From an archaeon (GTDB lineage: Archaea; Nanobdellota; Nanobdellia; Woesearchaeales; GW2011-AR4): DNA of 64,000 nt. How positions within the stretch are numbered: position 1 is the first letter of the stretch; each line of letters starts with the position of its first letter. Positions 34,884 to 56,059 of the stretch are shown here, piece after piece. Under the pieces are notes generated by a model. The model saw nothing but the letters and a program-made list of their open reading frames with translations. It was not told the origin of the DNA and did no database searches. The DNA lies in assembly GCA_002688925.1 (NCBI GenBank), contig NZEC01000011.1:61695-125694 (forward strand), given 5' to 3'. Both the position numbers and the translations under genes were made by a program.

Positions 34884-34886
34884 AAA

Positions 34887-36589: not shown

Positions 36590-36606
36590 GCCTCCATTCA
36601 GAAACA

Positions 36607-36614
36607 TTTAAAAA
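36607..36614 (+). promoter_or_regulatory. BRE/TATA promoter (AGAAACA TTTAAAAA) of rpl10e
   Basis: Ends 22 nt before the ATG at 36637. Confidence 0.6.
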
Positions 36615-36636
36615 CAGCATAAAATCCCATCACAAT

Positions 36637-37167: not shown

Positions 37168-37217
37168 ATTTATTGTCTTATTTTTATATCATTCTTTTAA
37201 GCAATCAAAGAGCTAAA

Positions 37218-37415
37218 ATGAAACTAATAATCAATAGCAAAGAAAAAGACATAAATTGCAACACAGTCTCAGATTTATTAAAAGAGCTTAATTTAAACAA
37301 TGACATAGTTGCAGTTGAATTAAACAAAAACATTGTGCACAGGGAAAATTTTGAAAAAACCAAATTAAAAAACCAGGACAAAATAGAAATTGTAACAGTT
37401 GTGGGTGGGGGTTAA
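37218..37415 (+). CDS. thiS: sulfur carrier protein ThiS
   Basis: 65 aa from the first ATG, ubiquitin-like, ends ...VVGGG. Its stop overlaps the thiG start (TAATG). Confidence 0.75.
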
Positions 37416-38182: not shown

Positions 38183-38254
38183 CAATAATATACTCAATGA
38201 ATAAATATATTCTATCAATGTCAAGAAACAAATAATAAAATAATACTTTTTACT

Positions 38255-38878
38255 ATGGAAAATTTTAATTTTGAAAATAGATTGTATGTAATAACCGAAA
38301 GCGCAATATCAAAAAATAGAACCAATGAATTTATAGTCAATGAAGCAATAAAAGGAGGCGCAGGCATAATCCAGTTAAGGGAGAAAAGCTGGAGCAAAGA
38401 AAAAGTAAAAGAAGAAGCAATAAAACTATTAAAAATCTGCAAAAAAAACAACGTTTTATTCATTGTAAACGATTACATCGACATTGCCCTGGAAATAGGA
38501 GCTCATGGTGTTCATCTGGGCCAGTCAGACATACCAATCAAAGAAGCAAGAAAACTTTGTCATAACAAGCTAATAATCGGATTATCAACCCATTCTATAG
38601 AACAAGCAACAAAAGCAGACAAAGAAGATGTTGATTATATAACAATAGGCCCAATATTTAATACAAGGGCAAAAGACTATACTGTTGGAATCAACATTAT
38701 CAAAAAAGTCCTGGAAAAAGTAAAAAAGCCCGTAATTGCCATAGGCGGCATAAAAAAAAACAACATCAACGATGTTTTAGCTCAGGGTATTAAAAGCATT
38801 GCAGTAATAAGTGCAGTTGTTTCTGCAGATGATGTTAAAGAAGCTGCATTGGAATTAGTTAATAGAATAATTTTATAA
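38255..38878 (+). CDS. thiE: thiamine-phosphate synthase
   Basis: LYVITE, IIQLREK, VNDYIDIALEIGAHGVHLGQ and AIGGI motifs. Confidence 0.9.
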   Translation: MENFNFENRLYVITESAISKNRTNEFIVNEAIKGGAGIIQLREKSWSKEKVKEEAIKLLKICKKNNVLFIVNDYIDIALEIGAHGVHLGQSDIPIKEARKLCHNKLIIGLSTHSIEQATKADKEDVDYITIGPIFNTRAKDYTVGINIIKKVLEKVKKPVIAIGGIKKNNINDVLAQGIKSIAVISAVVSADDVKEAALELVNRIIL

Positions 38879-38901
38879 AACAAATAACATTTCTCATAAC
38901 C

Positions 38902-40014
38902 ATGTTCAGCAAAACCTTCAAAGAAGAATATTATCCGCAAATCCAGAGCTTATTAGAACAGAAAACAAGAGTAGATTCAAGTTCAATAAAAAAAATCTTA
39001 AAAAAAGATAATCTCAATCTAAATGATATTAACAATCTAATCCAATCCTACCCAAATCAAGAATCAAGAAACTTAATTATCAAAACCGCAGCACAAAAAA
39101 GAGAAAAATTATGGAAAAACCGGTTATTTCTTGTTCCTCCGTTGTATGTAACAGACAAATGCGCAAATGACTGCCTTTACTGCCCCTGGAGAAAAAGCAA
39201 CAAAACACAGAGAAGGTCTTTAACAACACAAGAACTAAAAAAAGAGATGAATTTTTTAATAGATACAGGCTATAATACCATTCAGCTTGTAGGAGCCTCT
39301 GACCCGTCTTTTTCTGCAGATAAAATAGCTGAATACATAAAAATAGCAAAAGAAAAGCTAAAAGATAAAAAAGGCCACATAGGCATAAATTTTGAATCTA
39401 CAGATGAAAAAGATTACAAATTATTCATCAATTCAGGCCTTGATTTTGCAAGCCTTTGGCAGGAAACCTATCACCCTAAAACATTCAAAAAAATGCACCC
39501 AAAATCCAGGAAAAGCAATTTTGATTACAGGCTTGATGCATTCGACCGTGCTTTTAGATCAGGATTAAAAAAAGTTGGAATTGCCTTTCTTGGCAGGCTT
39601 TATGACTGGAAATTTGAGCTTCTTTCATTAATTGCCCATGGAACATACCTTAAGCAAAAATACAAAATTGATCCATTTATTATTGGCACTCCAAGATTGA
39701 TCAACACAGATAAAATTAAAATTAACAATCCCAGTAATTTTTCAGATGACGAATGGCTCTTTGCTGTTTCCATCCTAAAGCTTGCTTTCCCAAGATCATT
39801 GCCGTGGTTCAGCACAAGGGCAAGCTTTAATCTAAACAAAAAAGCAGCCCAAGGAGGAGGAGCTTTATTTACATTAGACTGCAGCACAGCAGTAGGCGGC
39901 TATACAATAAAAAAAGATTTTCCCCAATTTCCAGTCTACTCAAAATCCCTGGATAAAGGCATAAAATGGCTGAAACAGCAGGGCTATAAGCCGGAATTCC
40001 ATTTACCGTATTAG
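38902..40014 (+). CDS. thiH: radical SAM 2-iminoacetate synthase (ThiH-like)
   Basis: CANDCLYCPW CxxxCxxC cluster motif, about 370 aa, directly after thiE and close to thiS-thiG. Assignment to ThiH rather than another BioB/HydG-like enzyme rests mainly on context. Confidence 0.7.
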   Translation: MFSKTFKEEYYPQIQSLLEQKTRVDSSSIKKILKKDNLNLNDINNLIQSYPNQESRNLIIKTAAQKREKLWKNRLFLVPPLYVTDKCANDCLYCPWRKSNKTQRRSLTTQELKKEMNFLIDTGYNTIQLVGASDPSFSADKIAEYIKIAKEKLKDKKGHIGINFESTDEKDYKLFINSGLDFASLWQETYHPKTFKKMHPKSRKSNFDYRLDAFDRAFRSGLKKVGIAFLGRLYDWKFELLSLIAHGTYLKQKYKIDPFIIGTPRLINTDKIKINNPSNFSDDEWLFAVSILKLAFPRSLPWFSTRASFNLNKKAAQGGGALFTLDCSTAVGGYTIKKDFPQFPVYSKSLDKGIKWLKQQGYKPEFHLPY

Positions 40015-40360: not shown

Positions 40361-40523
40361 AATGGAAACTAAAACAATTAAAAACAAAATGCATTGGAAT
40401 TATAGGTTTTTTACAGTTAGTTTGAGGAATATTGTTTCTTGGCATAAGCTCATTTCATATACTGGGAAGTGTTGCTGATTTTTCTATATATTGTCTTACA
40501 ATTTAATCCCTAATAGTTACTTT

Positions 40524-40531
40524 TTTATATA
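40524..40531 (+). promoter_or_regulatory. TATA box (TTTATATA) of the tRNA gene
   Basis: Ends 22 nt before the mature tRNA 5' end at 40554. Confidence 0.6.
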
Positions 40532-40553
40532 CTCAAAAATTACTTGTTTATAT

Positions 40554-40644
40554 GCGAGGGTAGCCAAGCGGCCAAGGCGAGCGTCTCAAAATGAGCTCGA
40601 AGCTGCAACCCGCTTATTCCTGGGTTCGAGTCCCAGCCCTCGCT
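40554..40644 (+). tRNA. intron-containing tRNA, class I; probable tRNA-Cys(GCA) via a non-canonical splice (canonical 37/38 splicing would give CAA)
   Basis: Acceptor GCGAGGG/CCCTCGC, D arm GCC-AAGCGGCCAA-GGC, T arm CTGGG-TTCGAGT-CCCAG, 5-nt variable loop, discriminator T, no encoded CCA. 25 nt lie between the anticodon-stem halves (7-nt loop plus an 18-nt insert). TATA at 40524-40531 is 22 nt upstream. Confidence 0.8.
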
Positions 40645-40839
40645 TTTATTTTCATAACAAAAAGCTTTTAAAAACAATAACATTACTAATAAAAATGAGA
40701 AATATCACAATTAATTTTCAAAATAATTTATTTCTGTTAGATAATACTATGTGCTGTTGTTAGTTCTGTTTCATTGTTCAAAATATAATGCCTTAGTTCA
40801 TATTTTTTAAATTTCTATAAAGTGTTTAGGAGGTAATAA

Positions 40840-41142
40840 ATGGCTATTTATTTCAATAAAGACAATAAAATTAAGCTTGAAAATCAAATAGGAGAATTGT
40901 ATGATAGGTATGATAATCAGCCTTTGGGAGTTGATGAAGCTATTTTAGAGAATATGGAATCATGCAATAATTGTACTTTATATATAAATCAAATGTCCAA
41001 AAATAAAAAAAAATACTCTGCAAAAATCATTGAAAGAAAATCCAATGGAAAAGAGCATACAATCAAAGATGGTTCAAAATATATGCCCCATAGAACTGAA
41101 ATTGGCAATTATATTGGGAATGGGTATTGCATATGTCGTTAA
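40840..41142 (+). CDS. hypothetical protein
   Basis: 100-aa ORF with a strong SD AGGAGGT 5 nt upstream. Contains CNNC and a C-terminal GYCICR. Confidence 0.45.
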   Translation: MAIYFNKDNKIKLENQIGELYDRYDNQPLGVDEAILENMESCNNCTLYINQMSKNKKKYSAKIIERKSNGKEHTIKDGSKYMPHRTEIGNYIGNGYCICR

Positions 41143-41196: not shown

Positions 41197-42555
41197 ATGC
41201 CAATAAAATTATTCAACACATTAACCAGGAAAAAAGAAGCATTAAAGCCAATTAAAGACAAAAATATAAAATTATTCGTCTGCGGCATAACACCTTATGA
41301 TTATGCCCATATCGGCCATGCAAAAACTTATGTGCAGTTCGATGTCATAGTAAAATACCTAAGATACAGAGGATATTCTGTTTATTACCTGCAAAACGTG
41401 ACTGATATCGATGACAAAATAATCAACAGGGCAAAAGAAAAAAATATCAAGCCGCTTGATTTGGCAAGGAATTTTGAAAAAGAATACCATAAAGATATGC
41501 AGGCATTGGGCGTTGATTCTATAACTAAATATGCGCGTGCAACAAAGCACATTAAGGAGATAATAAACCAGGTAAATGCTTTAATCAAGCACGGATATGC
41601 ATATAACATAGAAAATGACGGGATTTACTTCAATCTTAGCAAATTTAAGGAATATGGCAAATTATCAGGCAGAAAATCAATGCAGGCAGAAGACGCTGTA
41701 ACAAGAATAGATGACAGCAAAAAGAAGATCAACAAAGGCGATTTTTGCCTGTGGAAAAAATCAAAAAAAGACGAGCCTTCATGGGACGACCCATGGTTTC
41801 ATAATGGAAGGCCAGGCTGGCATATTGAAGATACAGCAATAAGCGAGAAATATCTTGGCCAGCAATATGATATCCACGGCGGCGCCCGAGACTTGATATT
41901 CCCCCATCATGAGGCAGAAATAGCCCAGATGGAATCTGCCTCAGGAAAAAAGCCCTTTGTTAAATATTGGCTGCATACTGGCTTTCTTAACGTAAAAGGC
42001 CAGAAAATGGCCAAATCGCTGGGAAATTTCATCACAATAAGGGAGGCTTTAAAGAAATATGACCCTAAAGTATTAAGGTTTTTTTACCTCTCAGCCCACT
42101 ACAAAAGCCCGATAGATTTCTCAGAAGAATTATTGAAGCAGGCAAAAAATTCATTGGAAAGATTAAATGATTTTCTAAAAAAAGTAAAATACAGCAAAGA
42201 AAAAGACAACAGCAAATTAATAGAAAAAACAAAAAAGGAATTTTTTAAGAATATGGATGATGATTTTGACACTCCAAAAGCACTTGCAGTTATTTTTGAT
42301 TTTGTAAAAGAGGTAAACAAGACTGGAGGAGGGAAAAAAAGCTGCAACTTAATAATAGAGTTTGATAAAATCTTCAGTGTTTTGACAATAGAAGACCTTA
42401 AGTTAAGCCAGGAAATCAAAAAATTGATAGAAGAAAGAGAAAAAGCAAGAAAAGAAAAAGACTATGAAAAAGCAGATAAAATAAGGGATAAAATAAGGGA
42501 TAAAGGCTATATTCTTGAAGATTCAGATGAAGGTCCAAGAGTCAAAAAAATATAA
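41197..42555 (+). CDS. cysS: cysteinyl-tRNA synthetase
   Basis: CGITPYDYAHIGHAKTY (HIGH), GWHIEDTA and KMAKSLGN (KMSKS). TATA TTTTATTA at 41166-41173 is 23 nt upstream. Confidence 0.95.
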   Translation: MPIKLFNTLTRKKEALKPIKDKNIKLFVCGITPYDYAHIGHAKTYVQFDVIVKYLRYRGYSVYYLQNVTDIDDKIINRAKEKNIKPLDLARNFEKEYHKDMQALGVDSITKYARATKHIKEIINQVNALIKHGYAYNIENDGIYFNLSKFKEYGKLSGRKSMQAEDAVTRIDDSKKKINKGDFCLWKKSKKDEPSWDDPWFHNGRPGWHIEDTAISEKYLGQQYDIHGGARDLIFPHHEAEIAQMESASGKKPFVKYWLHTGFLNVKGQKMAKSLGNFITIREALKKYDPKVLRFFYLSAHYKSPIDFSEELLKQAKNSLERLNDFLKKVKYSKEKDNSKLIEKTKKEFFKNMDDDFDTPKALAVIFDFVKEVNKTGGGKKSCNLIIEFDKIFSVLTIEDLKLSQEIKKLIEEREKARKEKDYEKADKIRDKIRDKGYILEDSDEGPRVKKI

Positions 42556-46752: not shown

Positions 46753-48189
46753 CTAATAAGCCCTGGCAAAATAAACCAGAAAATTCCCTTCTTTTCCGCA
46801 ATGGACGCATTTGCCTTTTTCTTCCTTTATTATTACCCTTGAAGTTGCTCCACCTGTCTTGTCTTTAATTTCCTCCTCACACTTCACTTTATTGCAGAAA
46901 TTTGCCAAAACTAATTTTTTATCATTAATGCCTTTTTTGAATTCATTAAAGTTCTTAACCTTTATTGTATTGTCATTAAAAAACTTCTTTGATTTCCTGT
47001 AAAGATTTTCATGTATGTCTTCCAGCACCTTATCTGTTTTTTTATTGAGTTCGCTTATCTTAACAGGCTCTTTTTTTCCGTTATCCCGCCTGACTAAAAT
47101 AACCTGACTTTTCTCAATATCTCTAGGCCCTATTTCTAATCTTACAGGAACACCTTTAAGCTCCCACTCATTGAATTTCCATCCCGAGCTGTATCCTTCT
47201 CTATCATCAACCTCAACCCTTAAGCCTTTCAATTTACTTTTGATTTCATCTGCTTTTTTCAGCACTTTATCCTTAGTCTTATCAAAAATTATCGGAACCA
47301 CAACCACTTGCACCGGAGCCATTTTAGGAGGCATTACAAGGCCGTTGTCATCTCCATGCACCCCAATCATAACCCCGAGCATCCTTGTCGTGATAGCGAA
47401 CGTATTCTGCCACACATAATCCTCTTTTTCATCTTTATCCAAAAATTTTATGTTAAAAGCTTTAGCAAAGTTCTGCCCGTCTGAATGAAAATCAGGCCCT
47501 TGTATTGCCTTTCCGCTTGGCAAAAAAAGCTCTATTGAGTAAGTTGCTTCTGCTCCTGGAAACTTTTCCTTTTCTGTTTTTTTACCTATGACTCCGTATA
47601 ATGCCATATAATCATTAAGAAAATCAGAATAAATGTTCAGAATCTGCTCTTTTTCTTTCTCAGCTTCTTCTTTTGAAGCAAAAACTGTATGCCCTTCATT
47701 CCATAAAAATTCCCTTGTTCTTAATAAGGCAATGGGATGCTTAAACTCCCATCTTACTATATTGTTCCATTGGTTCAGCCTTAAAGGTAGATCTCTCCAG
47801 CTCCTTATCCACTTTGCAAAGCTTTCATACATTATTGTTTCTGATGTTGGTCTTACTGCAAGCCTTTCATTTAATTTTGTATTTCCAGCATGAGTAACCC
47901 ACGCAACCTCTGGATTAAAACCTTTTACATGGCTTTCTTCTTTTTTTAATAAGCTTTCAGGAATAAATAATGGAAAATAGCAATTTTTAATTCCAATTTC
48001 CTTAAACTTTTTATCAACCTCGCTCTGCACAATCTCCCACATAAAAAAAGAATAGGGTTTAAAGACCATGCACCCTGAAACAGAAGTGTAATCCGCAAGC
48101 TCAGCTTTCTGGATTACCTGTGTGTACCATTCAGAAAAATCCTCTGATTTTTTTACTGAGATTCCAAGCTTTTCTTCTTTTTTTGGCAT
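46753..48189 (-). CDS. proS: prolyl-tRNA synthetase, archaeal/eukaryotic type
   Basis: Class II motifs (RPTSET, FLWNEGHT..., GKAIQG), an anticodon-binding domain, and a C-terminal zinc domain ending ...CVHCGKEG..YFARAY. Confidence 0.95.
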   Translation of the reverse strand: MPKKEEKLGISVKKSEDFSEWYTQVIQKAELADYTSVSGCMVFKPYSFFMWEIVQSEVDKKFKEIGIKNCYFPLFIPESLLKKEESHVKGFNPEVAWVTHAGNTKLNERLAVRPTSETIMYESFAKWIRSWRDLPLRLNQWNNIVRWEFKHPIALLRTREFLWNEGHTVFASKEEAEKEKEQILNIYSDFLNDYMALYGVIGKKTEKEKFPGAEATYSIELFLPSGKAIQGPDFHSDGQNFAKAFNIKFLDKDEKEDYVWQNTFAITTRMLGVMIGVHGDDNGLVMPPKMAPVQVVVVPIIFDKTKDKVLKKADEIKSKLKGLRVEVDDREGYSSGWKFNEWELKGVPVRLEIGPRDIEKSQVILVRRDNGKKEPVKISELNKKTDKVLEDIHENLYRKSKKFFNDNTIKVKNFNEFKKGINDKKLVLANFCNKVKCEEEIKDKTGGATSRVIIKEEKGKCVHCGKEGNFLVYFARAY

Positions 48190-48205
48190 TAGGTTATCTG
48201 CCTTT

Positions 48206-49030
48206 TCATGTATATTTAAATTTTTTGGGTAAAAATAAGGTGCCTTTTGATTTACTTCTTAATAGTTCATTTATAATCATATGCTCCACACCATTTGCTA
48301 TCACTACTGGAATTCCAGCATTCATAGCAATTTGCGTTGCCTCTAACTTGGATTCCATGCCTCCTGCACCATTTTCTGTTCCAATATTAGGATTAGCGTA
48401 CCCTTTCACTTCATCCACATCTCTTGCTAAAGGTACCTTCTTTCTTTGATTGTCATATACACCATCAACACTTGTTAGCATAATAAGGAGATCTGCATTG
48501 CTATTTACAGCAACTTTAGCAGCCAATGAGTCATTGTCACCAAAAGTAATCTCTTCATTTGATACAGTATCATTCTCATTTATAATTGGTACAACATCAT
48601 TATACAATAATAATTCTAAAGTATTTTTGAAACTATCCAACCTACCACTTTTTTTATCAAAATCTTCATGTGTTAAAAGTAATTGTCCAGCTGTTATTCC
48701 ATAAGACCGCAAGTGCATTTCATATTCATGATACATACTGCTTTGGCCAATAGCAGAATAAGACTGCTTTACAACAGTTTCACTATGCTCGCCATCGTTT
48801 TTCAAATCAATTATGCCTCTTCCAGTAGCAATTGCTCCTGAAGAAACTATGATAACTTTTTTATCATATTTTTTTATTAACTCAGCAACCTGGTCCGAGA
48901 TTTCATAAATTTTTGTACTATCGAGCTTTTTATCTTCTCTTGTCAATATATTAGAACCTATTTTTACTACATATATTTCTGCTTGATTCAATAAATATTG
49001 TTGGATTTTTCCTAAATTCACTTCATTCAT
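48206..49030 (-). CDS. proB: glutamate 5-kinase (no PUA domain)
   Basis: VVKIGSNILT, IVSSGAIATGR, INENDTV and FGDNDSLAA motifs. The ORF-track N-terminal extension overlaps the tRNA and is rejected. The ATG at 49030 has SD AGGAGGT 5 nt upstream. Confidence 0.85.
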   Translation of the reverse strand: MNEVNLGKIQQYLLNQAEIYVVKIGSNILTREDKKLDSTKIYEISDQVAELIKKYDKKVIIVSSGAIATGRGIIDLKNDGEHSETVVKQSYSAIGQSSMYHEYEMHLRSYGITAGQLLLTHEDFDKKSGRLDSFKNTLELLLYNDVVPIINENDTVSNEEITFGDNDSLAAKVAVNSNADLLIMLTSVDGVYDNQRKKVPLARDVDEVKGYANPNIGTENGAGGMESKLEATQIAMNAGIPVVIANGVEHMIINELLRSKSKGTLFLPKKFKYT

Positions 49031-49035
49031 GTTAA

Positions 49036-49042
49036 ACCTCCT
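49036..49042 (-). promoter_or_regulatory. Shine-Dalgarno AGGAGGT of proB inside the 19-nt tRNA-Pro/proB spacer
   Basis: Minus strand reads tRNA...CCCCA TTTATTC AGGAGGT TTAAC ATG. Confidence 0.6.
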
Positions 49043-49049
49043 GAATAAA

Positions 49050-49160
49050 TGGGGCTGCCCGGATTTGAACCGAGGTTGTGTGGCCCCGAACCACAAGTGA
49101 TAAGTGATATTACTCCAAAACAACTATTAAATTGCTCCAACCAAGCTACACTACAGCCTC
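49050..49160 (-). tRNA. tRNA-Pro: tRNA-Pro(CGG) with a roughly 35-nt insertion in the 3' side of the D arm
   Basis: Anticodon arm TGTGG-TTCGGGG-CCACA (CGG at 49088-49086), T arm CTCGG-TTCAAAT-CCGGG, acceptor GAGGCTG/CAGCCCC (A2:C71 mismatch), discriminator A, no CCA. 58 nt lie between the acceptor and the anticodon stem where 19 are expected. Confidence 0.75.
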
Positions 49161-49186
49161 TACCTTGAATGAGAAAAACTAGGTAG

Positions 49187-49194
49187 TTATTAAA
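49187..49194 (-). promoter_or_regulatory. TATA box (TTTAATAA on the minus strand) of tRNA-Pro
   Basis: Ends 26 nt upstream of the tRNA 5' end at 49160. Confidence 0.5.
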
Positions 49195-49297
49195 CCTTTA
49201 GAATAAGTGATTATTAATTAAATTATTAATTGAGTATAACGAAGAAGACATAATTAACCTTAAAAAAATAGCAGAATATTGCGTTGAGAAATTGAAA

Positions 49298-50005
49298 TCA
49301 GCTACTAACAACTAGCTCCTTAACATCTTCTTTTGCAGATATCAAAGCAGCCTCTAAAACAACTTCTGCAACCTGCTCTGGCTTAAGCATTTTTTCCCTT
49401 TGAGGGTCATCTTTGCTCATGCCGGGGTCGTGTATTGGTGTATTTGTTTTGCCCGGATAAACAGCTACAACACTAATTCCTTTTTCTTTTAAGTCCTCAT
49501 GCACTGCATTTGACAATCCTGCCTGTCCATACTTGGATGCAGCATACGCAACTCTTCCGGATTTAGTTTTCTTTACAGTGCTTGTTATTATATTTACAAT
49601 ACTTCCTGATTTTTGCTCAATCATGATTGGAGCAATTTCTTTTATTGTGTTAAAGCTCCCGGTTAAATTGAATTTAATCTGCTCATCAAAATCCTCATAA
49701 GAAACATCTTCAATAGGGCCCCATCTCGCAATCCCGGCATTATTCACAAGAACATCAATTTTTTTATATTTTTCAATAATTCCCAAAACAGCATTTTTTA
49801 CCTGCTCTCTGTCAGTCACATCCATCACAATTGAATCTGCCTTTCCATTATTTTTTTTAATTGAATTTTCAACTTCCTTTAACCTATCCAGATTCCTGGA
49901 TGTCAAAATTACCAAAGCTCCTTCAGAAGCAAATTTCTCTGCAATTGCCTTCCCAATTCCGGAACTTGCCCCTGTTACCAGTGCAATTTTGTTTTTTAGC
50001 TGCAT
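49298..50005 (-). CDS. short-chain dehydrogenase/reductase (3-oxoacyl-ACP reductase-like)
   Basis: TGASSGIGKAIA, NNAG and YAASKYG (catalytic YxxxK). Confidence 0.85.
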   Translation of the reverse strand: MQLKNKIALVTGASSGIGKAIAEKFASEGALVILTSRNLDRLKEVENSIKKNNGKADSIVMDVTDREQVKNAVLGIIEKYKKIDVLVNNAGIARWGPIEDVSYEDFDEQIKFNLTGSFNTIKEIAPIMIEQKSGSIVNIITSTVKKTKSGRVAYAASKYGQAGLSNAVHEDLKEKGISVVAVYPGKTNTPIHDPGMSKDDPQREKMLKPEQVAEVVLEAALISAKEDVKELVVSS

Positions 50006-50006
50006 T

Positions 50007-50891
50007 TTAGATTCTACTTTTTTTATTTAATAGATTACACAATCTATCCGCCCTATATGAGCTCCTTACTAAAGGGCCGGTTTCAACATTCTCAAATCCA
50101 ATTTCATATCCTATTCTTTTAAGCTCTAAAAATTCATCAGGAGTATAATATTTTTCAATTTTCACATGCTTAATTGATGGTCTTAAATATTGCCCTATTG
50201 TTAAATAATCCACATTATTATTTTTTAATTCTTTCATTGTTTTTTTAATCTCTTCCAATGTTTCACCAAAACCAACCATCAAGCCGGATTTTGTCTTTAT
50301 TTTACCATCTATTTTTTTTGAGTTTTCAAGCAATTCCAATGACTTCTTGTAATTCCCTTTTGGCCTGACTTTATTAAACACAGGTTCAACAGCCTCGATA
50401 TTATGCCCCAGAACATCAGGCTTTGCTTCAATCACTGTTTTCAATGCAGAAAAATCAAAGTCAGGTATCAGCACTTCAACCTTGCAAGATGTTATTTTTT
50501 TGATTTCATTGACAGTTTCAGCATAAATTAAAGATCCTCCATCTTCTAAATCATCCCTGGTAACAGAAGTAATAACAGCATACTTTAATTTTAGTTTTTT
50601 AACAGCATCAGCAATCTTCTTTGGCTCATTTTTATCAAAATGAATTGGCTTTCCAGTCTTAACATTGCAATATGCACAATACCTAGTGCAAACATCCCCT
50701 AAAATAAGAAAAGTTGCCGTGCCATTGCTCCAACAATCAGAAAGGTTTGGACATTTAGCTTCTTCGCAAATAGTATTCAATCTATTTGTCTTTACAAGGC
50801 TTTGAATTTTATTGAATTTATCTCCAGAAGGCAACTTTATCTTAAACCAGTCCGGATGCCTTCTTTGAGGTTTTATTTGGCTGTATTGCAT
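50007..50891 (-). CDS. lipA: lipoyl synthase
   Basis: CEEAKCPNLSDCW auxiliary cluster and CTRYCAYCNV radical SAM motif. Confidence 0.95.
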   Translation of the reverse strand: MQYSQIKPQRRHPDWFKIKLPSGDKFNKIQSLVKTNRLNTICEEAKCPNLSDCWSNGTATFLILGDVCTRYCAYCNVKTGKPIHFDKNEPKKIADAVKKLKLKYAVITSVTRDDLEDGGSLIYAETVNEIKKITSCKVEVLIPDFDFSALKTVIEAKPDVLGHNIEAVEPVFNKVRPKGNYKKSLELLENSKKIDGKIKTKSGLMVGFGETLEEIKKTMKELKNNNVDYLTIGQYLRPSIKHVKIEKYYTPDEFLELKRIGYEIGFENVETGPLVRSSYRADRLCNLLNKKSRI

Positions 50892-51460
50892 CTTATAATC
50901 CTTTTCTCAGTAACTATCTTATCAACCGGAACATCATGCTTCTCAATAGGTATTTTATCTGCTATTTGAAAATCATAAGCAAGACCTATCTTTACTGCAT
51001 TTTTATTTATTTTTTCTAAATTATCTAAAAACCTGTCATAATATCCATGCCCATAGCCAATCCTATGCCCGCTTTTGTCAAACACAACACCCGGAACAAT
51101 CACTAGATCAATATCCGCTATATCAAACTTTTTTATATGATGCTCCTTATGCTCTAAAATCCCAAAATTTTTCTTCTCCAACTCATTAAAATCTTCCAAT
51201 TTAGAAATCTGCAGAAGATAATTATCTTTTTCAGTATAAGGCACAACAACAGTCTTTTCCTTTTCCAATAATAATTCTTTAATCATCTCATGAGTATCAG
51301 CTTCATTATCAAAAGAAACATAGAACATGATATTTTTTGCTTCTTTGAATTCCGGCAAAGAGTAAAGCATTTCCTTTATTTCTGTACTTTTTTCTATAAC
51401 ATATTCTTCACTAAGAGATTTTCTTTTTTCAAATATTTTTAATTTAAGGGCCTGTTTCAT
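50873..51460 (-). CDS. 5-formyltetrahydrofolate cyclo-ligase
   Basis: VVPGVVFDKSGHRIGYGHGYYDRFL motif. The 3' end overlaps the lipA start by 19 nt. Confidence 0.85.
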   Translation of the reverse strand: MKQALKLKIFEKRKSLSEEYVIEKSTEIKEMLYSLPEFKEAKNIMFYVSFDNEADTHEMIKELLLEKEKTVVVPYTEKDNYLLQISKLEDFNELEKKNFGILEHKEHHIKKFDIADIDLVIVPGVVFDKSGHRIGYGHGYYDRFLDNLEKINKNAVKIGLAYDFQIADKIPIEKHDVPVDKIVTEKRIIRCNTAK

Positions 51461-52765
51461 TTAGTCTACAATTCTCTTTATATGTTCAACCTTTTTCCCA
51501 ATTAGCTCTTTTGTCCCGATATCTTTCCTGTGGAATACTTTTCCTTTAACCTTAGAAACAGCCTCTTCTGCAATCTTCTCCGCTTCCTCTAAATTATCTC
51601 CTATGCCTAAAAATGCCACTGCTCTTGAGCCTGTCATGTACAATCCATCTTGTTTTTTATCAACAGAAGCATAGTAGATTTTAGCATTAGAACTTTGAAT
51701 CTCAATTTTCTCGTTTTTAACAGGATTGTCAGGATAGCCTTCAGGAACAGCATACTTGCAGACAGTTGCCTTTTTCTTAAACTCAATTTTTAATTTTCCA
51801 AGATCCTGCACAATTATTGCCTGGCATATTCCAGCAAGCTCTGTCTTAAGCAGTGGCAAAACATTCATAGCCTCAGGGTCTCCAAACCTTGCATTATACT
51901 CGATTAATTTAACCCCATCTTTTGTTAAAATAAATCCGCCATACATAATTCCTTTGTAATAAGTTCCTGTCTCAGAATAGATTGCATCAACAACCTTTTT
52001 TGTAATTTTCAATGCCTCATTAACATGCTCTTTTTTCAAAAACGGCAGCAAAAGATTTTCACATGAATAAGATCCCATGCCTCCTGTATTTGGACCTTTG
52101 TCATCTTCATAAGCCCTCTTATGGTCCTGCACAGCTGGAAAACTAAGAACAGTTTTTCCATCAGTCAGGCATTGCAAAGAAAATTCTTCTCCATCCAGCT
52201 TTTCCTCAACAACAACAGACTCATGTTTTTCTAAAACTTCTTTGCAGTAAGCAACAGCTTCTTCTTTTGTGTTAAAATGATCACCTTGTACCTTAACACC
52301 TTTCCCCCCAGTCAAGCCGTCTGGTTTAACAACAATACCCTCAATTATATTAAGAAAATCATCAATCTCATCAATATTCTCTTTGCCAAAAACCATAAAT
52401 TTTGGATTTCCCTCAATCTCATGTTTCTGCAGCAGATTCCTTGTAAAAGATTTTGAAGTTTCCAGTTTGGCAAGCATCTTTACAGGGCCTATTGCATCTA
52501 TACCCTCGCTTTGCAGCACATCAACAACTCCAAAGCTTAAAGAATCTTCCGGCCCGATAAAAGCAAAATCAACATTATTTTTCTTGGCAAAGTCCTTTAC
52601 TTTATCCATATCAGAATAACTGCCTATTTCAATCTTTTCAGACAAAGCAGCAATCCCCGGATTATTTGATTTCATATAAGAAAAAAGCTTTGCATAGCTG
52701 CTTTTTCTAATAGTCTCTGCTATAACATTCTCGCGAGCACCATGACCTAAAAGCAAAATATTCAT
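51461..52765 (-). CDS. purD: phosphoribosylamine-glycine ligase
   Basis: MNILLLGHGARE, ATP-grasp core, GGMGSY and EYNARFGDPE motifs. Confidence 0.95.
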   Translation of the reverse strand: MNILLLGHGARENVIAETIRKSSYAKLFSYMKSNNPGIAALSEKIEIGSYSDMDKVKDFAKKNNVDFAFIGPEDSLSFGVVDVLQSEGIDAIGPVKMLAKLETSKSFTRNLLQKHEIEGNPKFMVFGKENIDEIDDFLNIIEGIVVKPDGLTGGKGVKVQGDHFNTKEEAVAYCKEVLEKHESVVVEEKLDGEEFSLQCLTDGKTVLSFPAVQDHKRAYEDDKGPNTGGMGSYSCENLLLPFLKKEHVNEALKITKKVVDAIYSETGTYYKGIMYGGFILTKDGVKLIEYNARFGDPEAMNVLPLLKTELAGICQAIIVQDLGKLKIEFKKKATVCKYAVPEGYPDNPVKNEKIEIQSSNAKIYYASVDKKQDGLYMTGSRAVAFLGIGDNLEEAEKIAEEAVSKVKGKVFHRKDIGTKELIGKKVEHIKRIVD

Positions 52766-52926
52766 AATATCCCCCTAAATATAGATTATTAATTTTCTTT
52801 ATATTATTTTTGTTTCAATTCCTTTAATCCACCCTTCCCCATAATTATATAATTTATATAAACTCAACTAAAAGCAAATGTTTATAAAGCATTACACCAT
52901 AATATGAATTGGGGGTAGTAGTTAAA

Positions 52927-54477
52927 ATGCTGGATGACGTAAAAGAAGAATGCGGCATTTGCGCCGTTTACATAAAGGGAAGCACTCATACTGCCAATAA
53001 AGCCTTGTTCTACCTATACAAATTATTGCTGAACCTGCAAAACAGGGGCCAGTTAAGCGCCGGCATAACCACTTTTAATCCAGACAGGTCACAAATACTT
53101 GATACATATAAGCAGTTAGGCCATGTAAATGAAGTTTTTAAGACTAACAGCAGGGAAAAAAGCTTCAGGATATTCAAGAGATATGCAGGCAACAAAGGAA
53201 TAGGCCATGTAAGGTATGCAACTTCCGGAACCGAAGGCAGGGATTTAGCTCAGCCATTTGAAAGGCATCATGGCAGAAAATGGAAATGGTTTTCATTTGG
53301 CTTGAATGGAAATCTTGCAAACTATGCAGAGCTGAAAAAAGACCTTCTTGAAAAAGCAGATTACCATATTGTTTATGATACAGACACTGAAATTCTAATG
53401 CACTATATCTCCAGGGAACTAAAAGGAAGCAAAAGCCCGGATCTGCTTAAAGTATTTACAAACCTGGCAAAAAAGTTTGATGGCTGCTACAACATAGCTT
53501 ATATGAATGCATTTGGCGAGATGGTAATATCTCGTGATCCATATGGCTTCAGACCCTTAGTTTACGGCTTTAGCAAAGATAAAAAAATATTCATGGCTGC
53601 ATCTGAATCAGTTGCTCTCATAAACTGCGGAATGACCAATATAACTTCTCTTGAGCCGGGACACATGATCCACATAAGCAACGGCAATGTTAAGATAAGA
53701 AAATATGCAGAATCCAAAAGAAAAGCTCATTGCATGTTCGAATGGGTATATTTTTCAAATGTAAGCTCGGTTTTAGACAACAAATCGGTTTATACTTCAC
53801 GTACAAACTTGGGCAAAGAGCTGGCAAAGCTTGAAACAGAAAAAATCAATGATGATTATATTGTTGTTCCGGTTCCTGATACAGCAAAAGCAGCAGGAGA
53901 CGCTTATGCATTTGAATTAAAACTGCCATCAAAAGAGGGGATTATAAGGAACAGGTATGTCGGAAGGACATTTATTGAAGGAAGCTCACGTTATGATAAG
54001 GTCCAGAACAAGTACACAGCATTGAGAAATGTTTTAAAGGGAAAAAAAGTTCTGGTTGTAGATGATAGTGTAGTTAGGGGAAATACAACAAAGCAGCTTG
54101 TAAAATACCTGAAAGAAGTCGGCGGCGCAAAGGAAATTCATCTAAGAATAACATGCCCTCCGATCCGTGGCCCTTGTTTTTACGGCATTGACATGTCAAC
54201 TGTTTCTGAACTTCTTGTTCCAAAATACGAAAAAAAGCCTGTTTCCTCAAACATTACAAAAGAAACATGCGCTAAGATTGCAAAAGACGTAGGAGCAGAT
54301 TCCCTCATTTATCAAACAGTAGAAGGCCTGGTAAAGTCAATAGGATTTCCAAAAGATAAATTATGTACAGCATGCGTCACAGGAGAATACCCAACACCAT
54401 GCGGAAAAAAGCTTTTCAAAAAAGCATGGAAAAACCACAGGAAAGGCATAAAAGAAAGGACTTATAGCTGCAGATGA
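52927..54477 (+). CDS. purF: amidophosphoribosyltransferase
   Basis: The first ATG gives MLDDVKEECGICAV (Ntn catalytic Cys after a propeptide). PRT motif VLVVDDSVVRGNT and C-terminal Fe-S cysteines. Confidence 0.95.
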   Translation: MLDDVKEECGICAVYIKGSTHTANKALFYLYKLLLNLQNRGQLSAGITTFNPDRSQILDTYKQLGHVNEVFKTNSREKSFRIFKRYAGNKGIGHVRYATSGTEGRDLAQPFERHHGRKWKWFSFGLNGNLANYAELKKDLLEKADYHIVYDTDTEILMHYISRELKGSKSPDLLKVFTNLAKKFDGCYNIAYMNAFGEMVISRDPYGFRPLVYGFSKDKKIFMAASESVALINCGMTNITSLEPGHMIHISNGNVKIRKYAESKRKAHCMFEWVYFSNVSSVLDNKSVYTSRTNLGKELAKLETEKINDDYIVVPVPDTAKAAGDAYAFELKLPSKEGIIRNRYVGRTFIEGSSRYDKVQNKYTALRNVLKGKKVLVVDDSVVRGNTTKQLVKYLKEVGGAKEIHLRITCPPIRGPCFYGIDMSTVSELLVPKYEKKPVSSNITKETCAKIAKDVGADSLIYQTVEGLVKSIGFPKDKLCTACVTGEYPTPCGKKLFKKAWKNHRKGIKERTYSCR

Positions 54478-54565
54478 ATTAAATTATTGTTTTTATTCTT
54501 ATTATTTTTAATTATAATTATTCTAAGTATTTATTTTTATAATTTTTTAATTGTTGTTTATTTTT

Positions 54566-54611
54566 ATTATTGGAGTTTTCATTGGCTTTTTTATCATTGA
54601 AACTTTTTATT
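54566..54611 (+). repeat. tandem degenerate plus exact copies of the same motif
   Basis: ATTATTGGAGTTTTCATTGGCTTTT (54566-54590) followed by ATTGAAACTTTTTATT (54596-54611). Confidence 0.55.
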
Positions 54612-54668
54612 TACCCTATTACCAAAAAGATTATAAGCACAAACAACATAAACACTAATGGTATTAAA

Positions 54669-55328
54669 ATGCACTCAAACACATTATTGGACCAGAAAAA
54701 CGACCTCATAAAGTATTGGAAAGAAAGATTTAGCTTTGGAGATATAGAAATAAATGCCTTTAAAGCCGTTGACAGGGAAAACTTTATCCATGAAAATCAT
54801 AAGCATAATGCGTATAATGATGCTCCTTTGCCCTTGCTGAGGGGAAAAACAATCTCGCAGCCAACAACCGTCATGATAATGACAGCCGCACTGGAATTAG
54901 AACTTGGAGATAAAGTTTTTGAAGTAGGCACAGGTTCTGGCTACCAAACTGCTATTATTGCAAAGATTGTAGGACCAAAAGGCAAGGTAATAACAACAGA
55001 AGTTGTCCCTGAGCTTATAAGCTTTGCAAAAGAAAACCTAAAAAAAGCAAAAATAGATAATGTTGAAATATTCGAAGAAGACGGCTCAAAAGGAATAAAA
55101 AGCAAAGGTATGTTTGACAAGATAATAATAACTGCTGCCTGCAGAGAATTCCCAAAACCTTTATTAGACCAATTAAAGCCAAATGGAATTATTGTAGGCC
55201 CCATTGGAAGCAGAGATGCGCAGGAAATGGTAAGAGGCATCAAAGACAAAAAAGGAAAACTGCAATTAGAGTTTCTGGGCTCTTTCTTATTCACCCCGAT
55301 GTACGGCAAGTATGGGTTTGAGGATTGA
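54669..55328 (+). CDS. pcm: protein-L-isoaspartate O-methyltransferase
   Basis: TISQPTTVMIM and the SAM motif VFEVGTGSGYQTA. Start taken at the first ATG, because the ORF-track TTG start runs through an intergenic repeat. Confidence 0.88.
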   Translation: MHSNTLLDQKNDLIKYWKERFSFGDIEINAFKAVDRENFIHENHKHNAYNDAPLPLLRGKTISQPTTVMIMTAALELELGDKVFEVGTGSGYQTAIIAKIVGPKGKVITTEVVPELISFAKENLKKAKIDNVEIFEEDGSKGIKSKGMFDKIIITAACREFPKPLLDQLKPNGIIVGPIGSRDAQEMVRGIKDKKGKLQLEFLGSFLFTPMYGKYGFED

Positions 55329-55384
55329 TAACTATTCTAAAGTAGAAAAGATTAAATATTGGTTGGTGATTTTTCAAAAATAAG

Positions 55385-56059
55385 ATGTATAGTGATTTTT
55401 TATTTCAGGATATAAATTTTTTGGGTTCTTTTGGCTACACTCATACAAAGAGTGGTTTAGAGAAAGCTGTTGAGGATAAGAGGTTATTTGACACTCTAAC
55501 AGAAAATTTAAATGAAAAAGTAAAGATATCTCCAAATTTATATTTCTATATTATAGTAAATAAATATATGAAAGAAATTGATATTGAAGATAAGGATATT
55601 ATTTTTTATGTTGGTGATATTTTGACTAAGTTTGTTGATAACGAAATACTAAGAACAATACCAAAACAAAATGAAAAGATTGAACATGTCTTAGATGCAA
55701 TAAATTTCGGACACAAATCTATAGATAAAAGGAATAAGTATGCAGCGTTTGATTCTTATAAGCATGCAGGAGAACTAGCATTGTTCATATCAGGTATATT
55801 TTACGAATACATCCTTAAAAAGGAGAATAGGAGGGTTTTAATGCCAGAACATTATGTGCCTTTGGGATCTTCATCATTTACAAGAGCAATAAATTTGAAT
55901 AAATATTTTGAATTAGGTATGCCTATTCCATCAGGAATGATGGCATTGTCCAATCCTGATAATTTCAAAGATTCAAAACTAGTTTTACATAAATTATCTG
56001 ACTATCATTTGAATTTTGATGATAAAATTACAATATTATGGAAAAGGCTAATGTCCTAA
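55385..56059 (+). CDS. hypothetical protein
   Basis: 224-aa ORF with no recognised motif. Confidence 0.4.
   Translation: MYSDFLFQDINFLGSFGYTHTKSGLEKAVEDKRLFDTLTENLNEKVKISPNLYFYIIVNKYMKEIDIEDKDIIFYVGDILTKFVDNEILRTIPKQNEKIEHVLDAINFGHKSIDKRNKYAAFDSYKHAGELALFISGIFYEYILKKENRRVLMPEHYVPLGSSSFTRAINLNKYFELGMPIPSGMMALSNPDNFKDSKLVLHKLSDYHLNFDDKITILWKRLMS

What the first reader, a model, noticed from the sequence alone, without database searches (positions are those of the whole stretch)
46753..49160. Cognate linkage: tRNA-Pro, then proB, then proS as an apparent single transcription unit (paralleled by tRNA-Cys? upstream of cysS)
On the minus strand the tRNA-Pro 3' end (49050) is only 19 nt from the proB ATG (49030). 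That spacer holds nothing but a perfect SD (AGGAGGT) and no TATA box. proS follows proB after 16 nt. The only promoter-like TATA is upstream of the tRNA (49194-49187). This implies a tRNA-mRNA co-transcript joining the proline tRNA, the first proline-biosynthesis enzyme and prolyl-tRNA synthetase. The second tRNA in the window, if it is Cys, sits upstream of cysS. Two such pairings in 64 kb suggest selection for co-regulation or co-inheritance. proB here lacks a PUA domain, and no proA or proC is adjacent.
Basis: partly seen in the sequence, partly recalled or inferred. Interest (0 to 1): 0.6.

Follow-up and report, generated by a model that had tools for sequence, protein, structure and literature searches.

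The report
Proline tRNA, proB, proS gene cluster
In a small marine archaeon, a proline tRNA gene split by an intron sits directly in front of a proline-synthesis gene and the proline tRNA-charging enzyme; the tRNA and the synthesis gene probably share one transcript, the charging enzyme has its own promoter, and related archaea show similar matched tRNA/enzyme pairings.

Summary
The coordinates hold. An intron-containing tRNA-Pro(CGG) gene (49160-49050, minus) lies 19 nt before proB, a glutamate 5-kinase without a PUA domain. Archaeal-type proS follows 16 nt later.

It lies 33 nt before the proS start, which is this genome's usual promoter spacing. So proS probably has its own promoter.

proB has no TATA at that spacing and carries a perfect Shine-Dalgarno site, which is uncommon in this window. 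It is most likely transcribed as the trailer of pre-tRNA-Pro. This is inferred; no RNA data exist.

Comparative evidence:
- A relative with 78% identical ProRS has tRNA-Pro(CGG) 240 nt upstream of proS and no proB. proB has no homologue between 46% and 100% identity. It looks inserted into an older tRNA-Pro/proS pair.
- proB-like genes next to proS recur in three other archaea.
- tRNA-Cys lies upstream of cysS in all six informative genomes, once only 6-15 nt away and once with cysteine-synthesis genes in between.
- A short reading frame ending Cys-Cys-Cys-stop is conserved there.

The matched linkage is real but its function is untested. Interest is moderate.

The parts
49183..49230 (-). AT-rich promoter region upstream of tRNA-Pro. 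It occurs in many copies in the metagenomes that hold this organism.
   Evidence: Summed contig depth is about 410 against about 25 for the flanks in four DNA runs, and assemblies break here. There is no second copy inside the window.
49187..49196 (-). TATA-like box GGTTTAATAA of the tRNA-Pro gene. The predicted transcription start is about 49164/49163, 3-4 nt before the tRNA.
   Evidence: Window-derived promoter matrix score 3.3, 98.9th percentile, at the right spacing.
49050..49160 (-). tRNA-Pro(CGG) gene, 111 nt. The anticodon is at 49088-49086, the discriminator is A, no CCA is encoded, and there is an A2:C71 mismatch.
   Evidence: Not called by ARAGORN or by Rfam at its gathering score; a partial 15.7-bit match. 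Called tRNA-Pro(cgg) after the D-loop insertion is removed. The strain allele L083 splices to a clean 73-nt tRNA-Pro.
49110..49140 (-). 31-nt intron after tRNA position 20, in the D loop, within a relaxed bulge-helix-bulge motif. The central helix pairs G15-T18 with GAGT, the bulges are GG|T and AA|T, and the inner hairpin has 8-10 bp.
   Evidence: Motif scan. The same architecture occurs in the L029 tRNA-Arg and in allele L083, where a G:U pair becomes G:C.
49096..49109 (-). Tandem 7-nt duplication TATCACT TATCACT at the start of the 3' exon. It is specific to this allele.
   Evidence: Allele L083 (98.5% identical overall) has one copy. The window allele, spliced at the supported sites, gives 80 nt that ARAGORN does not call. 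An alternative, weaker motif gives a 76-nt product that ARAGORN accepts.
49031..49049 (-). 19-nt spacer TTTATTCAGGAGGTTTAAC with the Shine-Dalgarno site AGGAGGT (49042-49036). The only T run is TTTATT. No TATA box is present.
48206..49030 (-). proB, a 274-aa glutamate 5-kinase without a PUA domain.
   Evidence: TIGR01027 240 bits (cut-off 186); PF00696 only. No homologue lies between 46% and 100% identity among 5.8 billion clusters. GC3 is 21.8% against 26-35% for its neighbours.
48213..48222 (-). TATA box AATTTAAATA of proS, inside the last codons of proB, 33 nt before the proS ATG.
   Evidence: Score 9.5, 99.97th percentile. proS was not in the training set of the matrix. Relatives' proS genes have a TATA at about the same spacing.
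46753..48189 (-). proS, archaeal/eukaryotic-type prolyl-tRNA synthetase, 478 aa.
   Evidence: TIGR00408 571 bits (cut-off 437); Pfam tRNA-synt_2b, HGTP_anticodon and ProRS-C_1.
40554..40644 (+). tRNA-Cys(GCA) gene with an 18-nt intron (40584-40601) at position 30/31 and discriminator U73.
   Evidence: Rfam tRNA 45.6 bits. Removing the intron gives tRNA-Cys(gca). Its counterparts in relatives are tRNA-Cys genes with introns elsewhere.
40695..40763 (+). Short reading frame MRNITINFQNNLFLLDNTMCCC*, ending Cys-Cys-Cys-stop. A TATA-like site lies about 31 nt before it; a T6 run (40803-40808) and AGGAGGT (40828-40834) follow it.
   Evidence: Conserved in L085, L086 and L091; a Cys-rich short frame of another form occurs in L093.
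40840..41142 (+). Conserved 100-aa ORF of unknown family between tRNA-Cys and cysS.
   Evidence: No Pfam match. ORFs of 101-128 aa occupy the same place in L085, L086 and L091.
41197..42555 (+). cysS, cysteinyl-tRNA synthetase.
   Evidence: PF01406 389 bits, plus DALR_2 and CysS_C.

Best explanation
The organism is a marine archaeon of the DPANN group, of Woesearchaeota type. On the minus strand it carries an intron-containing tRNA-Pro(CGG) gene, then proB 19 nt later, then proS 16 nt after that.

Most genes in this window have their own TATA box about 32 nt before the start codon, which implies leaderless mRNAs. Shine-Dalgarno sites are uncommon. proB breaks this rule. The DNA where its TATA should be is the tRNA's T arm and acceptor stem, and it has a perfect Shine-Dalgarno site.

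The most likely mechanism is this:
- RNA polymerase starts at the promoter upstream of the tRNA.
- It reads through the weak TTTATT run into proB.
- tRNase Z cuts after the discriminator base at 49050.
- This releases a proB mRNA with a 19-nt leader that holds the Shine-Dalgarno site.
- The tRNA is finished by RNase P, the splicing endonuclease and CCA addition.

proS is expressed mainly from its own promoter, which lies in the last codons of proB. Read-through from proB may add to it.

In evolutionary terms, an older pairing of tRNA-Pro(CGG) upstream of proS, still present in relative L087, received a proB gene between the two.

Shown: gene identities, spacings, promoter grammar, and gene order in relatives. 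Inferred: co-transcription, processing, and the insertion history.
For: - Gene identities and spacings.
- tRNA-Pro recovered after the insertion is removed.
- Strain allele L083 splices at the predicted bulge-helix-bulge sites to a clean 73-nt tRNA-Pro(CGG).
- Promoter grammar: 22 of 66 genes score at least 5 for a TATA 29-37 nt before the start, against 4.7% of random positions. The commonest spacing is 32-33 nt. Only 10 of 66 genes have a Shine-Dalgarno-like site, and only 2 of those also have the TATA.
- proB has the lowest TATA score of all 66 genes (-14.1) and a full AGGAGGT.
- proS scores 9.5 at 33 nt.
- The tRNA promoter region is a multi-copy element, and the tRNA's 5' 20 nt and its T arm/acceptor end stand at about threefold depth. 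This is consistent with tRNA-Pro paralogues sharing that sequence, A2:C71 included.
- In relatives, an ORF that follows a tRNA usually has its own TATA in a spacer of 28-60 nt. proS there has a TATA about 30-35 nt before the start.
- L087 (ProRS 78% identical) has tRNA-Pro(CGG) 240 nt before proS and no proB.
- proB has no relative between 46% and 100% identity, whereas CysRS and ProRS have many at 72-88%.
- In relative L093 a tRNA-Cys ends 6-15 nt before cysS. That is the same tRNA-then-mRNA abutment.
Against: - No transcript data. The three metatranscriptomes from the same or a linked sample hold nothing from this locus.
- The tRNA's TATA scores only 3.3.
- TTTATT after the tRNA could terminate part of the transcription.
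- Weak TATA-like sites exist in the tRNA intron (49133, score 1.2) and inside proB (49018, score 4.7, 27 nt before an in-frame TTG at 48991).
- The window allele has a 7-nt duplication, so its tRNA may be defective.
- The promoter matrix was derived from this window alone.
Confidence: 0.6

Rival explanations
1. One reading: one promoter upstream of the tRNA drives tRNA-Pro, proB and proS as a single obligatory transcription unit.
For: All three genes are on one strand with spacers of 19 and 16 nt. There is no clear terminator between proB and proS. In Iainarchaeota the proB-proS junction carries Shine-Dalgarno-like sites, which fits a true operon there.
Against: A TATA at the 99.97th percentile lies exactly 33 nt before the proS ATG. 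proS lacks a Shine-Dalgarno site. proS genes of relatives are transcribed from such a TATA. Gene-by-gene promoters are common in this window, even across gaps of 10-25 nt.
Confidence: 0.15
2. proB has a cryptic promoter of its own. It would lie either in the AT-rich tRNA intron (AATTTAATAG, 49133-49124) or inside the annotated N-terminus (AATTTAGGAA, 49018-49009), the latter with a leaderless TTG start at 48991. The tRNA would then be transcribed separately.
For: Both sites score above the 97th percentile. A ProB starting at the TTG would have an N-terminus as short as that of several homologues.
Against: The scores are low (1.2 and 4.7). The spacing to the TTG is 27 nt, not 32-33. A perfect 7-nt Shine-Dalgarno site 5 nt before an in-frame ATG is very unlikely by chance, and such sites in this window go with genes that lack a TATA near the start.
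Confidence: 0.12
3. The matched neighbourhoods are inherited gene order without selective meaning. proS and cysS simply lie in tRNA-rich regions of compact DPANN genomes, and proB landed there by chance.
For: Unmatched tRNA-Arg(TCG) lies near proS in 11 of 80 loci, and in all four close relatives. tRNA-Gln does so in 8 of 80, against 9 for tRNA-Pro, with similar scatter on the ProRS tree. Three of four close relatives lack tRNA-Pro at proS. There is no tRNA-Trp at trpS in the window.
Against: tRNA-Cys lies upstream of cysS in 6 of 6 informative genomes at 67-100% CysRS identity, while what lies between them changes. Synthesis genes for the same amino acid were inserted twice between the tRNA and the synthetase: proB here, and a CBS/CysK-like gene plus a cystathionine gamma-synthase/lyase-family gene in L085. 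proB-like genes sit next to proS in four genomes from at least two phyla.
Confidence: 0.35
4. In the window's strain the tRNA-Pro(CGG) gene is a decaying pseudogene. It survives only as the promoter and the tRNA-like processing signal for proB.
For: The 7-nt duplication makes the product spliced at the supported sites 80 nt long, and ARAGORN does not call it a tRNA. Differences from the sister allele are concentrated in the tRNA gene. tRNA-Pro(UGG) could read CCG by wobble (general knowledge).
Against: The duplication allele is the assembled form in five marine runs spanning 2014-2023. An alternative motif (TGGT:ATCA) would give a 76-nt product that ARAGORN accepts. The anticodon arm, T arm and acceptor stem are intact. 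CCG makes up 16% of proline codons.
Confidence: 0.25

Closest known systems
tRNA-mRNA co-transcripts and tRNA-like processing signals. Examples: the E. coli thrU-tyrU-glyT-thrT-tufB operon and mitochondrial tRNA punctuation (both from general knowledge); t-elements of plant mitochondria (PMC1920247); tRNA-like elements cut by RNase P and tRNase Z in Haloferax (PMC4946936).
   Same: A tRNA lies directly upstream of a coding region with no room for a promoter. The mRNA 5' end would be made by the tRNA 3' processing cut.
   Different: Here the tRNA matches the pathway of the gene downstream, contains a D-loop intron, and sits in a genome where leaderless, gene-by-gene transcription appears to be the rule. 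Nothing has been shown at the RNA level.
The pylTSBCD cluster of methanogens and some bacteria: tRNA-Pyl, its synthetase and the pyrrolysine synthesis genes (general knowledge).
   Same: One locus joins a tRNA, its matching synthetase and synthesis genes for the same amino acid.
   Different: Pyrrolysine is an added amino acid whose cassette moves as a unit. Here the amino acids are the standard proline and cysteine. The proline pathway at the locus is incomplete (only proB), and proS keeps its own promoter.
Archaeal tRNA introns at non-canonical positions, in bulge-helix-bulge motifs (PMC4090602, PMC3239211, PMC5829648).
   Same: Two 3-nt bulges flank a 4-bp helix. Intron positions vary between orthologous tRNAs. 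Such genes are common in DPANN archaea and escape standard tRNA finders.
   Different: Nothing essential. The outer helix is weak (a relaxed motif), and this allele has an extra 7-nt exon duplication.
Leaderless short reading frames encoding polycysteine, which act as cysteine-responsive attenuators in mycobacteria (bioRxiv 10.1101/834739).
   Same: A short, apparently leaderless frame with consecutive Cys codons lies upstream of genes for cysteine synthesis or charging.
   Different: The host is an archaeon. The Cys codons sit directly before the stop codon. A T6 run, not a hairpin terminator, follows. No functional data exist.

Membership tests
Glutamate 5-kinase (ProB) | Match to the curated ProB model above its cut-off | tested here: met
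   TIGR01027 240.1 bits against a cut-off of 186, over residues 21-270.
Glutamate 5-kinase (ProB) | C-terminal PUA domain (present in the long form, absent in the short form) | tested here: not met
   Only PF00696 is found and the protein is 274 aa. Many homologues of 250-280 aa also lack PUA, so this is the known short form.
Glutamate 5-kinase (ProB) | A partner pathway (proA and proC, or an alternative) in the same genome | not testable with these tools
Neither gene was found among about 40 window proteins.
Archaeal/eukaryotic-type prolyl-tRNA synthetase | Match to the family-I proS model and presence of the C-terminal ProRS-C_1 domain | tested here: met
   TIGR00408 571 bits (cut-off 437); PF09180 65.5 bits.
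tRNA-Pro | Cloverleaf with an NGG anticodon, G37 and A73 | tested here: met
   The anticodon loop is TTCGGGG. ARAGORN calls tRNA-Pro(cgg) after the insertion is removed. Allele L083 gives a clean 73-nt cloverleaf. The A2:C71 mismatch stands at about threefold depth, consistent with paralogues that share it.
Archaeal bulge-helix-bulge tRNA intron | Two 3-nt bulges separated by a 4-bp helix, with splice sites that restore a functional tRNA | tested here: inconclusive
   Met in allele L083 and in the L029 tRNA-Arg. In the window allele the same sites leave 7 extra nt. A weaker second motif restores a 76-nt tRNA.
tRNA-mRNA co-transcription unit | No promoter between the tRNA and the coding region | tested here: met
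   The spacer is 19 nt. The TATA score 29-37 nt before proB is -14.1, the lowest of 66 genes. Only weak alternatives exist.
tRNA-mRNA co-transcription unit | RNA molecules that span the junction, and processed ends at the tRNA boundaries | not testable with these tools
   No RNA run holds the locus.
Cluster of matched tRNA, synthetase and synthesis genes (pyl-like) | A tRNA, its matching synthetase and a synthesis gene for the same amino acid at one locus, recurring in relatives | tested here: met
   Pro: the window. In the two Iainarchaeum loci L066 and L079 the order is tRNA-Pro, gpgS, proB, proS. Cys: in L085 the order is tRNA-Cys, CBS/CysK-like gene, cystathionine gamma-synthase/lyase-family gene, cysS. 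Recurrence is patchy for Pro.
Cluster of matched tRNA, synthetase and synthesis genes (pyl-like) | Co-expression as one operon | tested here: not met
   proS has its own strong TATA. A T4AT4 run follows tRNA-Cys and a separately promoted short frame comes next.

The most novel reading that the evidence does not exclude
In this Woesearchaeota-type clade, tRNA genes may serve as the promoter and 5'-end-forming module for genes of their own amino acid. The tRNase Z cut would create the short-leader mRNA: 19 nt for proB here, 6-15 nt for cysS in L093. Supply of a tRNA would then be tied to its synthetase and to synthesis of its amino acid. New synthesis genes would be recruited into the gap between tRNA and synthetase (proB here; the two cysteine-pathway genes in L085). 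For cysteine, a conserved leaderless short frame ending Cys-Cys-Cys-stop would add a ribosome-based sensor of charged tRNA-Cys. That would be an archaeal counterpart of leader-peptide attenuation.
Probability: 0.2. Interest if true: 0.7.

Novelty: new variant of a known kind. Interest (0 to 1): 0.45.

Why it matters
Linkage of a tRNA gene to its own synthetase and to synthesis genes is textbook only for pyrrolysine. Finding it for proline and cysteine, in DPANN archaea that are uncultured and have no transcript maps, gives concrete loci to test. Three questions become testable:
- whether tRNA processing makes mRNA 5' ends in a genome that otherwise appears to use leaderless transcripts;
- how newly acquired genes get expressed without a promoter of their own;
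- whether archaea use sensing by a short leader peptide.

There is also a practical point. Both tRNAs of this window, and most of their counterparts in relatives, are missed or misnamed by standard tRNA finders because of introns at unusual positions. Surveys of tRNA neighbourhoods in these lineages must allow for such introns.

Tried and rejected
- **RNA evidence.** Three run searches and one lay of three metatranscriptomes gave no coverage.
- **Strict bulge-helix-bulge motif for a 37-nt intron.** This was my first reading, giving a D loop like that of L019. No such motif exists. It was replaced by the 31-nt intron at 20/21, which allele L083 supports.
- **Integration-site explanation for proB.** No repeat of the tRNA 3' end occurs elsewhere in the window.
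- **Bacterial-type promoter and terminator scan.** Uninformative for an archaeon.
- **Independent origin of proB in the window and in Iainarchaeota.** The tree separates them (SH-aLRT support 98), but the AU test does not reject a single clade (p 0.08). The ProB-like protein of L089 is too divergent to place (p 0.20).
- **Enrichment of tRNA-Pro near proS over unmatched tRNAs.** Not found across the 80 loci.
- **A proline-rich short frame near tRNA-Pro or proS, analogous to the Cys frame.** None found by reading.
- **A hidden third tRNA, for example tRNA-Trp near trpS.** None found with a scan for T arm plus acceptor stem.
Full report
**What is in the sequence**

Read on the minus strand, the region holds these features in order:
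- the stop of a short-chain dehydrogenase gene at 49298;
- a T7 run;
- an AT-rich stretch;
- a 111-nt tRNA-like gene at 49160-49050;
- the 19-nt spacer TTTATTCAGGAGGTTTAAC;
- an 825-nt ORF at 49030-48206;
- a 16-nt spacer;
- a 1437-nt ORF at 48189-46753.

The first ORF is a glutamate 5-kinase. It scores 240 bits on TIGR01027 against a cut-off of 186. It has only an AA_kinase domain and no PUA domain. The second ORF is an archaeal-type prolyl-tRNA synthetase, scoring 571 bits on TIGR00408, with the ProRS-C_1 domain.

**The tRNA-Pro gene**

ARAGORN and Rfam at its gathering score do not find it. A permissive Rfam search gives only a partial 15.7-bit match. The anticodon arm (loop TTCGGGG, anticodon CGG), the T arm and the acceptor stem are intact. 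An insertion interrupts the D loop. Deleting 34-41 nt there makes ARAGORN call tRNA-Pro(cgg).

One scan of metagenome contigs found a sister strain, L083, which is 98.5% identical over 3.7 kb. Its gene has a 34-nt insertion after tRNA position 20 and a single TATCACT. In both alleles, D-loop bases G15-T18 pair with an intronic GAG(T/C). Three-nucleotide bulges, GG|T and AA|T, flank that helix. An 8-10 bp intron hairpin follows.

This is a relaxed bulge-helix-bulge motif. The D-loop intron of a tRNA-Arg in relative L029 has the same layout. Spliced at these sites, L083 gives a clean 73-nt tRNA-Pro(CGG).

The window allele has a 31-nt intron and, in addition, a tandem 7-nt duplication at the start of the 3' exon. 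Its product at the same splice sites is 80 nt, and ARAGORN does not call it. A second, weaker motif (TGGT:ATCA) would give a 76-nt product that ARAGORN accepts.

The duplication allele is the assembled form in five marine DNA runs. Whether it yields a working tRNA is open.

Contig depths show that the first 20 nt and the T arm/acceptor end stand at about threefold depth. This is consistent with tRNA-Pro paralogues sharing them, the A2:C71 mismatch included. If so, the mismatch is a feature of the lineage and not damage. Introns at unusual positions are known to be frequent in DPANN archaea and to hide tRNA genes from standard finders (PMC5829648, PMC3239211, PMC4090602).

**Promoter grammar and what it implies**

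I built a position matrix from the upstream regions of 46 window genes. Its consensus is AATTTATAAA.
- Its first base lies most often 32-33 nt before the start codon.
- 22 of 66 genes score at least 5 in the interval 29-37 nt before the start, against 4.7% of random positions.
- Only 10 of 66 genes have a Shine-Dalgarno-like site, and only 2 of those also have the TATA.

This pattern fits an archaeon with mostly leaderless mRNAs and a promoter for nearly every gene. Such a class of genomes has been described (PMC6028130). Three points follow.

1. The tRNA has GGTTTAATAA at 49196-49187 (98.9th percentile). The predicted start is 3-4 nt before the tRNA. The region 49183-49230 has about 16 times the flanking contig depth in four runs, so it is a multi-copy promoter-type element.
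2. proB has the lowest TATA score of all 66 genes, because its upstream DNA is the tRNA. It also has a full AGGAGGT. In relatives, ORFs that follow tRNAs usually have a spacer of 28-60 nt with their own TATA. proB is the exception. It most likely depends on transcription that starts upstream of the tRNA. A tRNase Z cut after 49050 would then leave a 19-nt leader with the Shine-Dalgarno site. Weak alternatives exist at 49133 (score 1.2, in the intron) and at 49018 (score 4.7, with an in-frame TTG 27 nt later).
3. AATTTAAATA at 48222-48213 scores 9.5, the 99.97th percentile. It sits in the last codons of proB, exactly 33 nt before the proS ATG. proS has no Shine-Dalgarno site. proS genes of relatives have a TATA at about the same spacing.

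So proS most likely keeps its own leaderless-type promoter, and the three genes are not one obligatory unit.

No RNA evidence could be obtained. The only metatranscriptomes offered were added because they come from the same or a linked sample, and they hold nothing from this locus.

**Relatives: proline**

The window's ProRS groups with Woesearchaeota/Nanoarchaeota-type genomes.

Among 80 proS loci from species-representative genomes:
- tRNA-Pro lies within the fetched flanks in 8 (9 counting the window), scattered on the ProRS tree (7 changes of state);
- tRNA-Arg(TCG) does so in 11 (8 changes);
- tRNA-Gln does so in 8 (4 changes).

Enrichment at this scale is therefore not specific to the matched tRNA.

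proB next to proS occurs in two Iainarchaeum genomes. Their order is tRNA-Pro (twice), glucosyl-3-phosphoglycerate synthase, proB, proS. Shine-Dalgarno-like sites sit at the internal junctions, and a TATA follows directly after the tRNA.

Closer relatives, fetched through their ProRS proteins, are more telling:

| Locus | ProRS identity | What lies upstream of proS |
|---|---|---|
| L087 | 78% | tRNA-Pro(CGG) with a T-arm intron, 240 nt before proS; no proB |
| L088 | 78% | neither tRNA-Pro nor proB |
| L090 | 72% | neither tRNA-Pro nor proB |
| L089 | 72% | very divergent 232-aa ProB-like kinase (106 bits, below cut-off), 25 nt before proS |

proB itself has no homologue between 46% and 100% identity, whereas CysRS and ProRS have many at 72-88%. 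Its GC3 is also lower than that of its neighbours.

The simplest history is an older tRNA-Pro(CGG)/proS pair into which proB was inserted. proB lost or never had a promoter, and its tail now overlaps the proS promoter. Whether the DPANN proB genes share one origin is unresolved (AU test p 0.08 and 0.20).

**Relatives: cysteine**

The second tRNA (40554-40644) is tRNA-Cys(GCA). It has U73 and an 18-nt intron at position 30/31 in a bulge-helix-bulge-like motif. cysS is confirmed.

In every informative genome, tRNA-Cys lies upstream of cysS on the same strand, with introns at different positions:

| Locus | CysRS identity | Gap from tRNA-Cys to cysS |
|---|---|---|
| window | 100% | 552 nt |
| L086 | 78% | about 600 nt |
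| L091 | 76% | about 600 nt |
| L085 | 75.5% | 2.7 kb |
| L092 | 70% | 90 nt |
| L093 | 67% | 6-15 nt, no room for a promoter |

In L085 the gap holds a CBS/CysK-like gene and a gene of the cystathionine gamma-synthase/lyase family. These are candidate cysteine-synthesis genes, and they make a second case of same-amino-acid synthesis genes placed between the tRNA and the synthetase.

In the window, L085, L086 and L091, a short reading frame ending Cys-Cys-Cys-stop lies between the tRNA and the downstream genes. In the window it is MRNITINFQNNLFLLDNTMCCC*. A TATA-like site lies about 31 nt before it. A conserved TTCTG...CATTG motif, a T6 run and an AGGAGGT before the 100-aa ORF follow it. L093 has a different Cys-rich short frame upstream of the tRNA.

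This resembles the leaderless polycysteine short frames that act as cysteine-responsive attenuators in mycobacteria (bioRxiv 10.1101/834739). Here it is only a sequence-level candidate.

**Verdict**

The tRNA is split by an intron and invisible to standard tools. proS has its own promoter.

A tRNA-Pro/proB co-transcript is the best reading of the DNA. A three-gene operon is not.

The matched linkage is more than a coincidence of this window. It is well conserved for Cys and patchy for Pro, and synthesis genes were recruited twice. A selective reason has not been shown.

In kind it combines known things: tRNA-mRNA co-transcription, pyl-like clusters and unusual tRNA introns. It is a new variant of a known kind and of moderate interest. 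Its main open questions are directly testable once RNA from these organisms is available.

Noticed in passing
window 40695-40763 (+); also L085 7317-7376, L086 9508-9612, L091 2273-2362 and 3429-3476: A conserved short reading frame ending Cys-Cys-Cys-stop lies between tRNA-Cys and the cysS-side genes. It looks leaderless (a TATA-like site about 31 nt before it). A conserved TTCTG...CATTG motif and a T6 run follow. It is a candidate cysteine-sensing leader peptide in an archaeon.
   Followed up: partly
L093 3886-4010: A tRNA-Cys(GCA) gene with two insertions ends 6-15 nt before the cysS start codon. No promoter fits between them, so the cysS mRNA would be the trailer of the pre-tRNA. A Cys-rich short frame (MGGRVCSCKTCDCCKCS*) lies upstream of the tRNA.
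   Followed up: partly
L085 7168-11359: The order is tRNA-Cys (D-loop intron), CCC-stop short frame, CBS/CysK-like gene, gene of the cystathionine gamma-synthase/lyase family, 102-aa ORF, cysS. This is a tRNA + synthesis + synthetase module for cysteine.
   Followed up: partly
window 49183-49230: The AT-rich stretch upstream of tRNA-Pro has about 16 times the contig depth of its flanks in four marine runs, and assemblies break there. It may be a promoter element shared by tRNA genes. No second copy exists in this window.
   Followed up: partly
window 49046-49160 (from contigs of runs X1, X2, X4): The first 20 nt and the T arm/acceptor end of the tRNA-Pro gene stand at about threefold contig depth, consistent with tRNA-Pro paralogues elsewhere that share them. 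One such contig continues ...CCCCATTTAATACAAAAAAATGAAAGCAGAAG, an ATG about 15 nt after the tRNA end. This may be a second tRNA-ORF abutment.
   Followed up: no
window 40522-40554: The TATA of tRNA-Cys starts 32 nt before the first tRNA base. That is the same spacing as for leaderless mRNAs, so this tRNA may be transcribed without a 5' leader.
   Followed up: no
L089 5277-5975 and 5181-5206: A very divergent 232-aa ProB-like kinase lies 25 nt before proS; the NENDT-type motif reads NYNDG. Upstream of it is a fragment that looks like a degenerate tRNA 3' end (ATCGGGGTTCGAATCCTGTAGGCGCA).
   Followed up: partly
L088 5740-5900: A GC-rich inverted-repeat element sits just upstream of the proS promoter where L087 has tRNA-Pro. 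It may belong to the hairpin repeat family noted elsewhere in this genome.
   Followed up: no
window 9772-10542 and 5773-6957: Two bacterial-type envelope genes occur in an archaeon: prolipoprotein diacylglyceryl transferase (Lgt, 271 bits) and a family-9 glycosyltransferase (heptosyltransferase type).
   Followed up: no
window 29167-40014, 49298-57598: The window is rich in biosynthesis genes for a DPANN-type genome: ThiC, ThiG, ThiE, SHMT, FolD, PurH, PurD, PurF, GuaA, lipoyl synthase, lipoate ligase and PRPP synthase. A third synthetase gene, trpS (3088-4173), has no tRNA next to it.
   Followed up: partly
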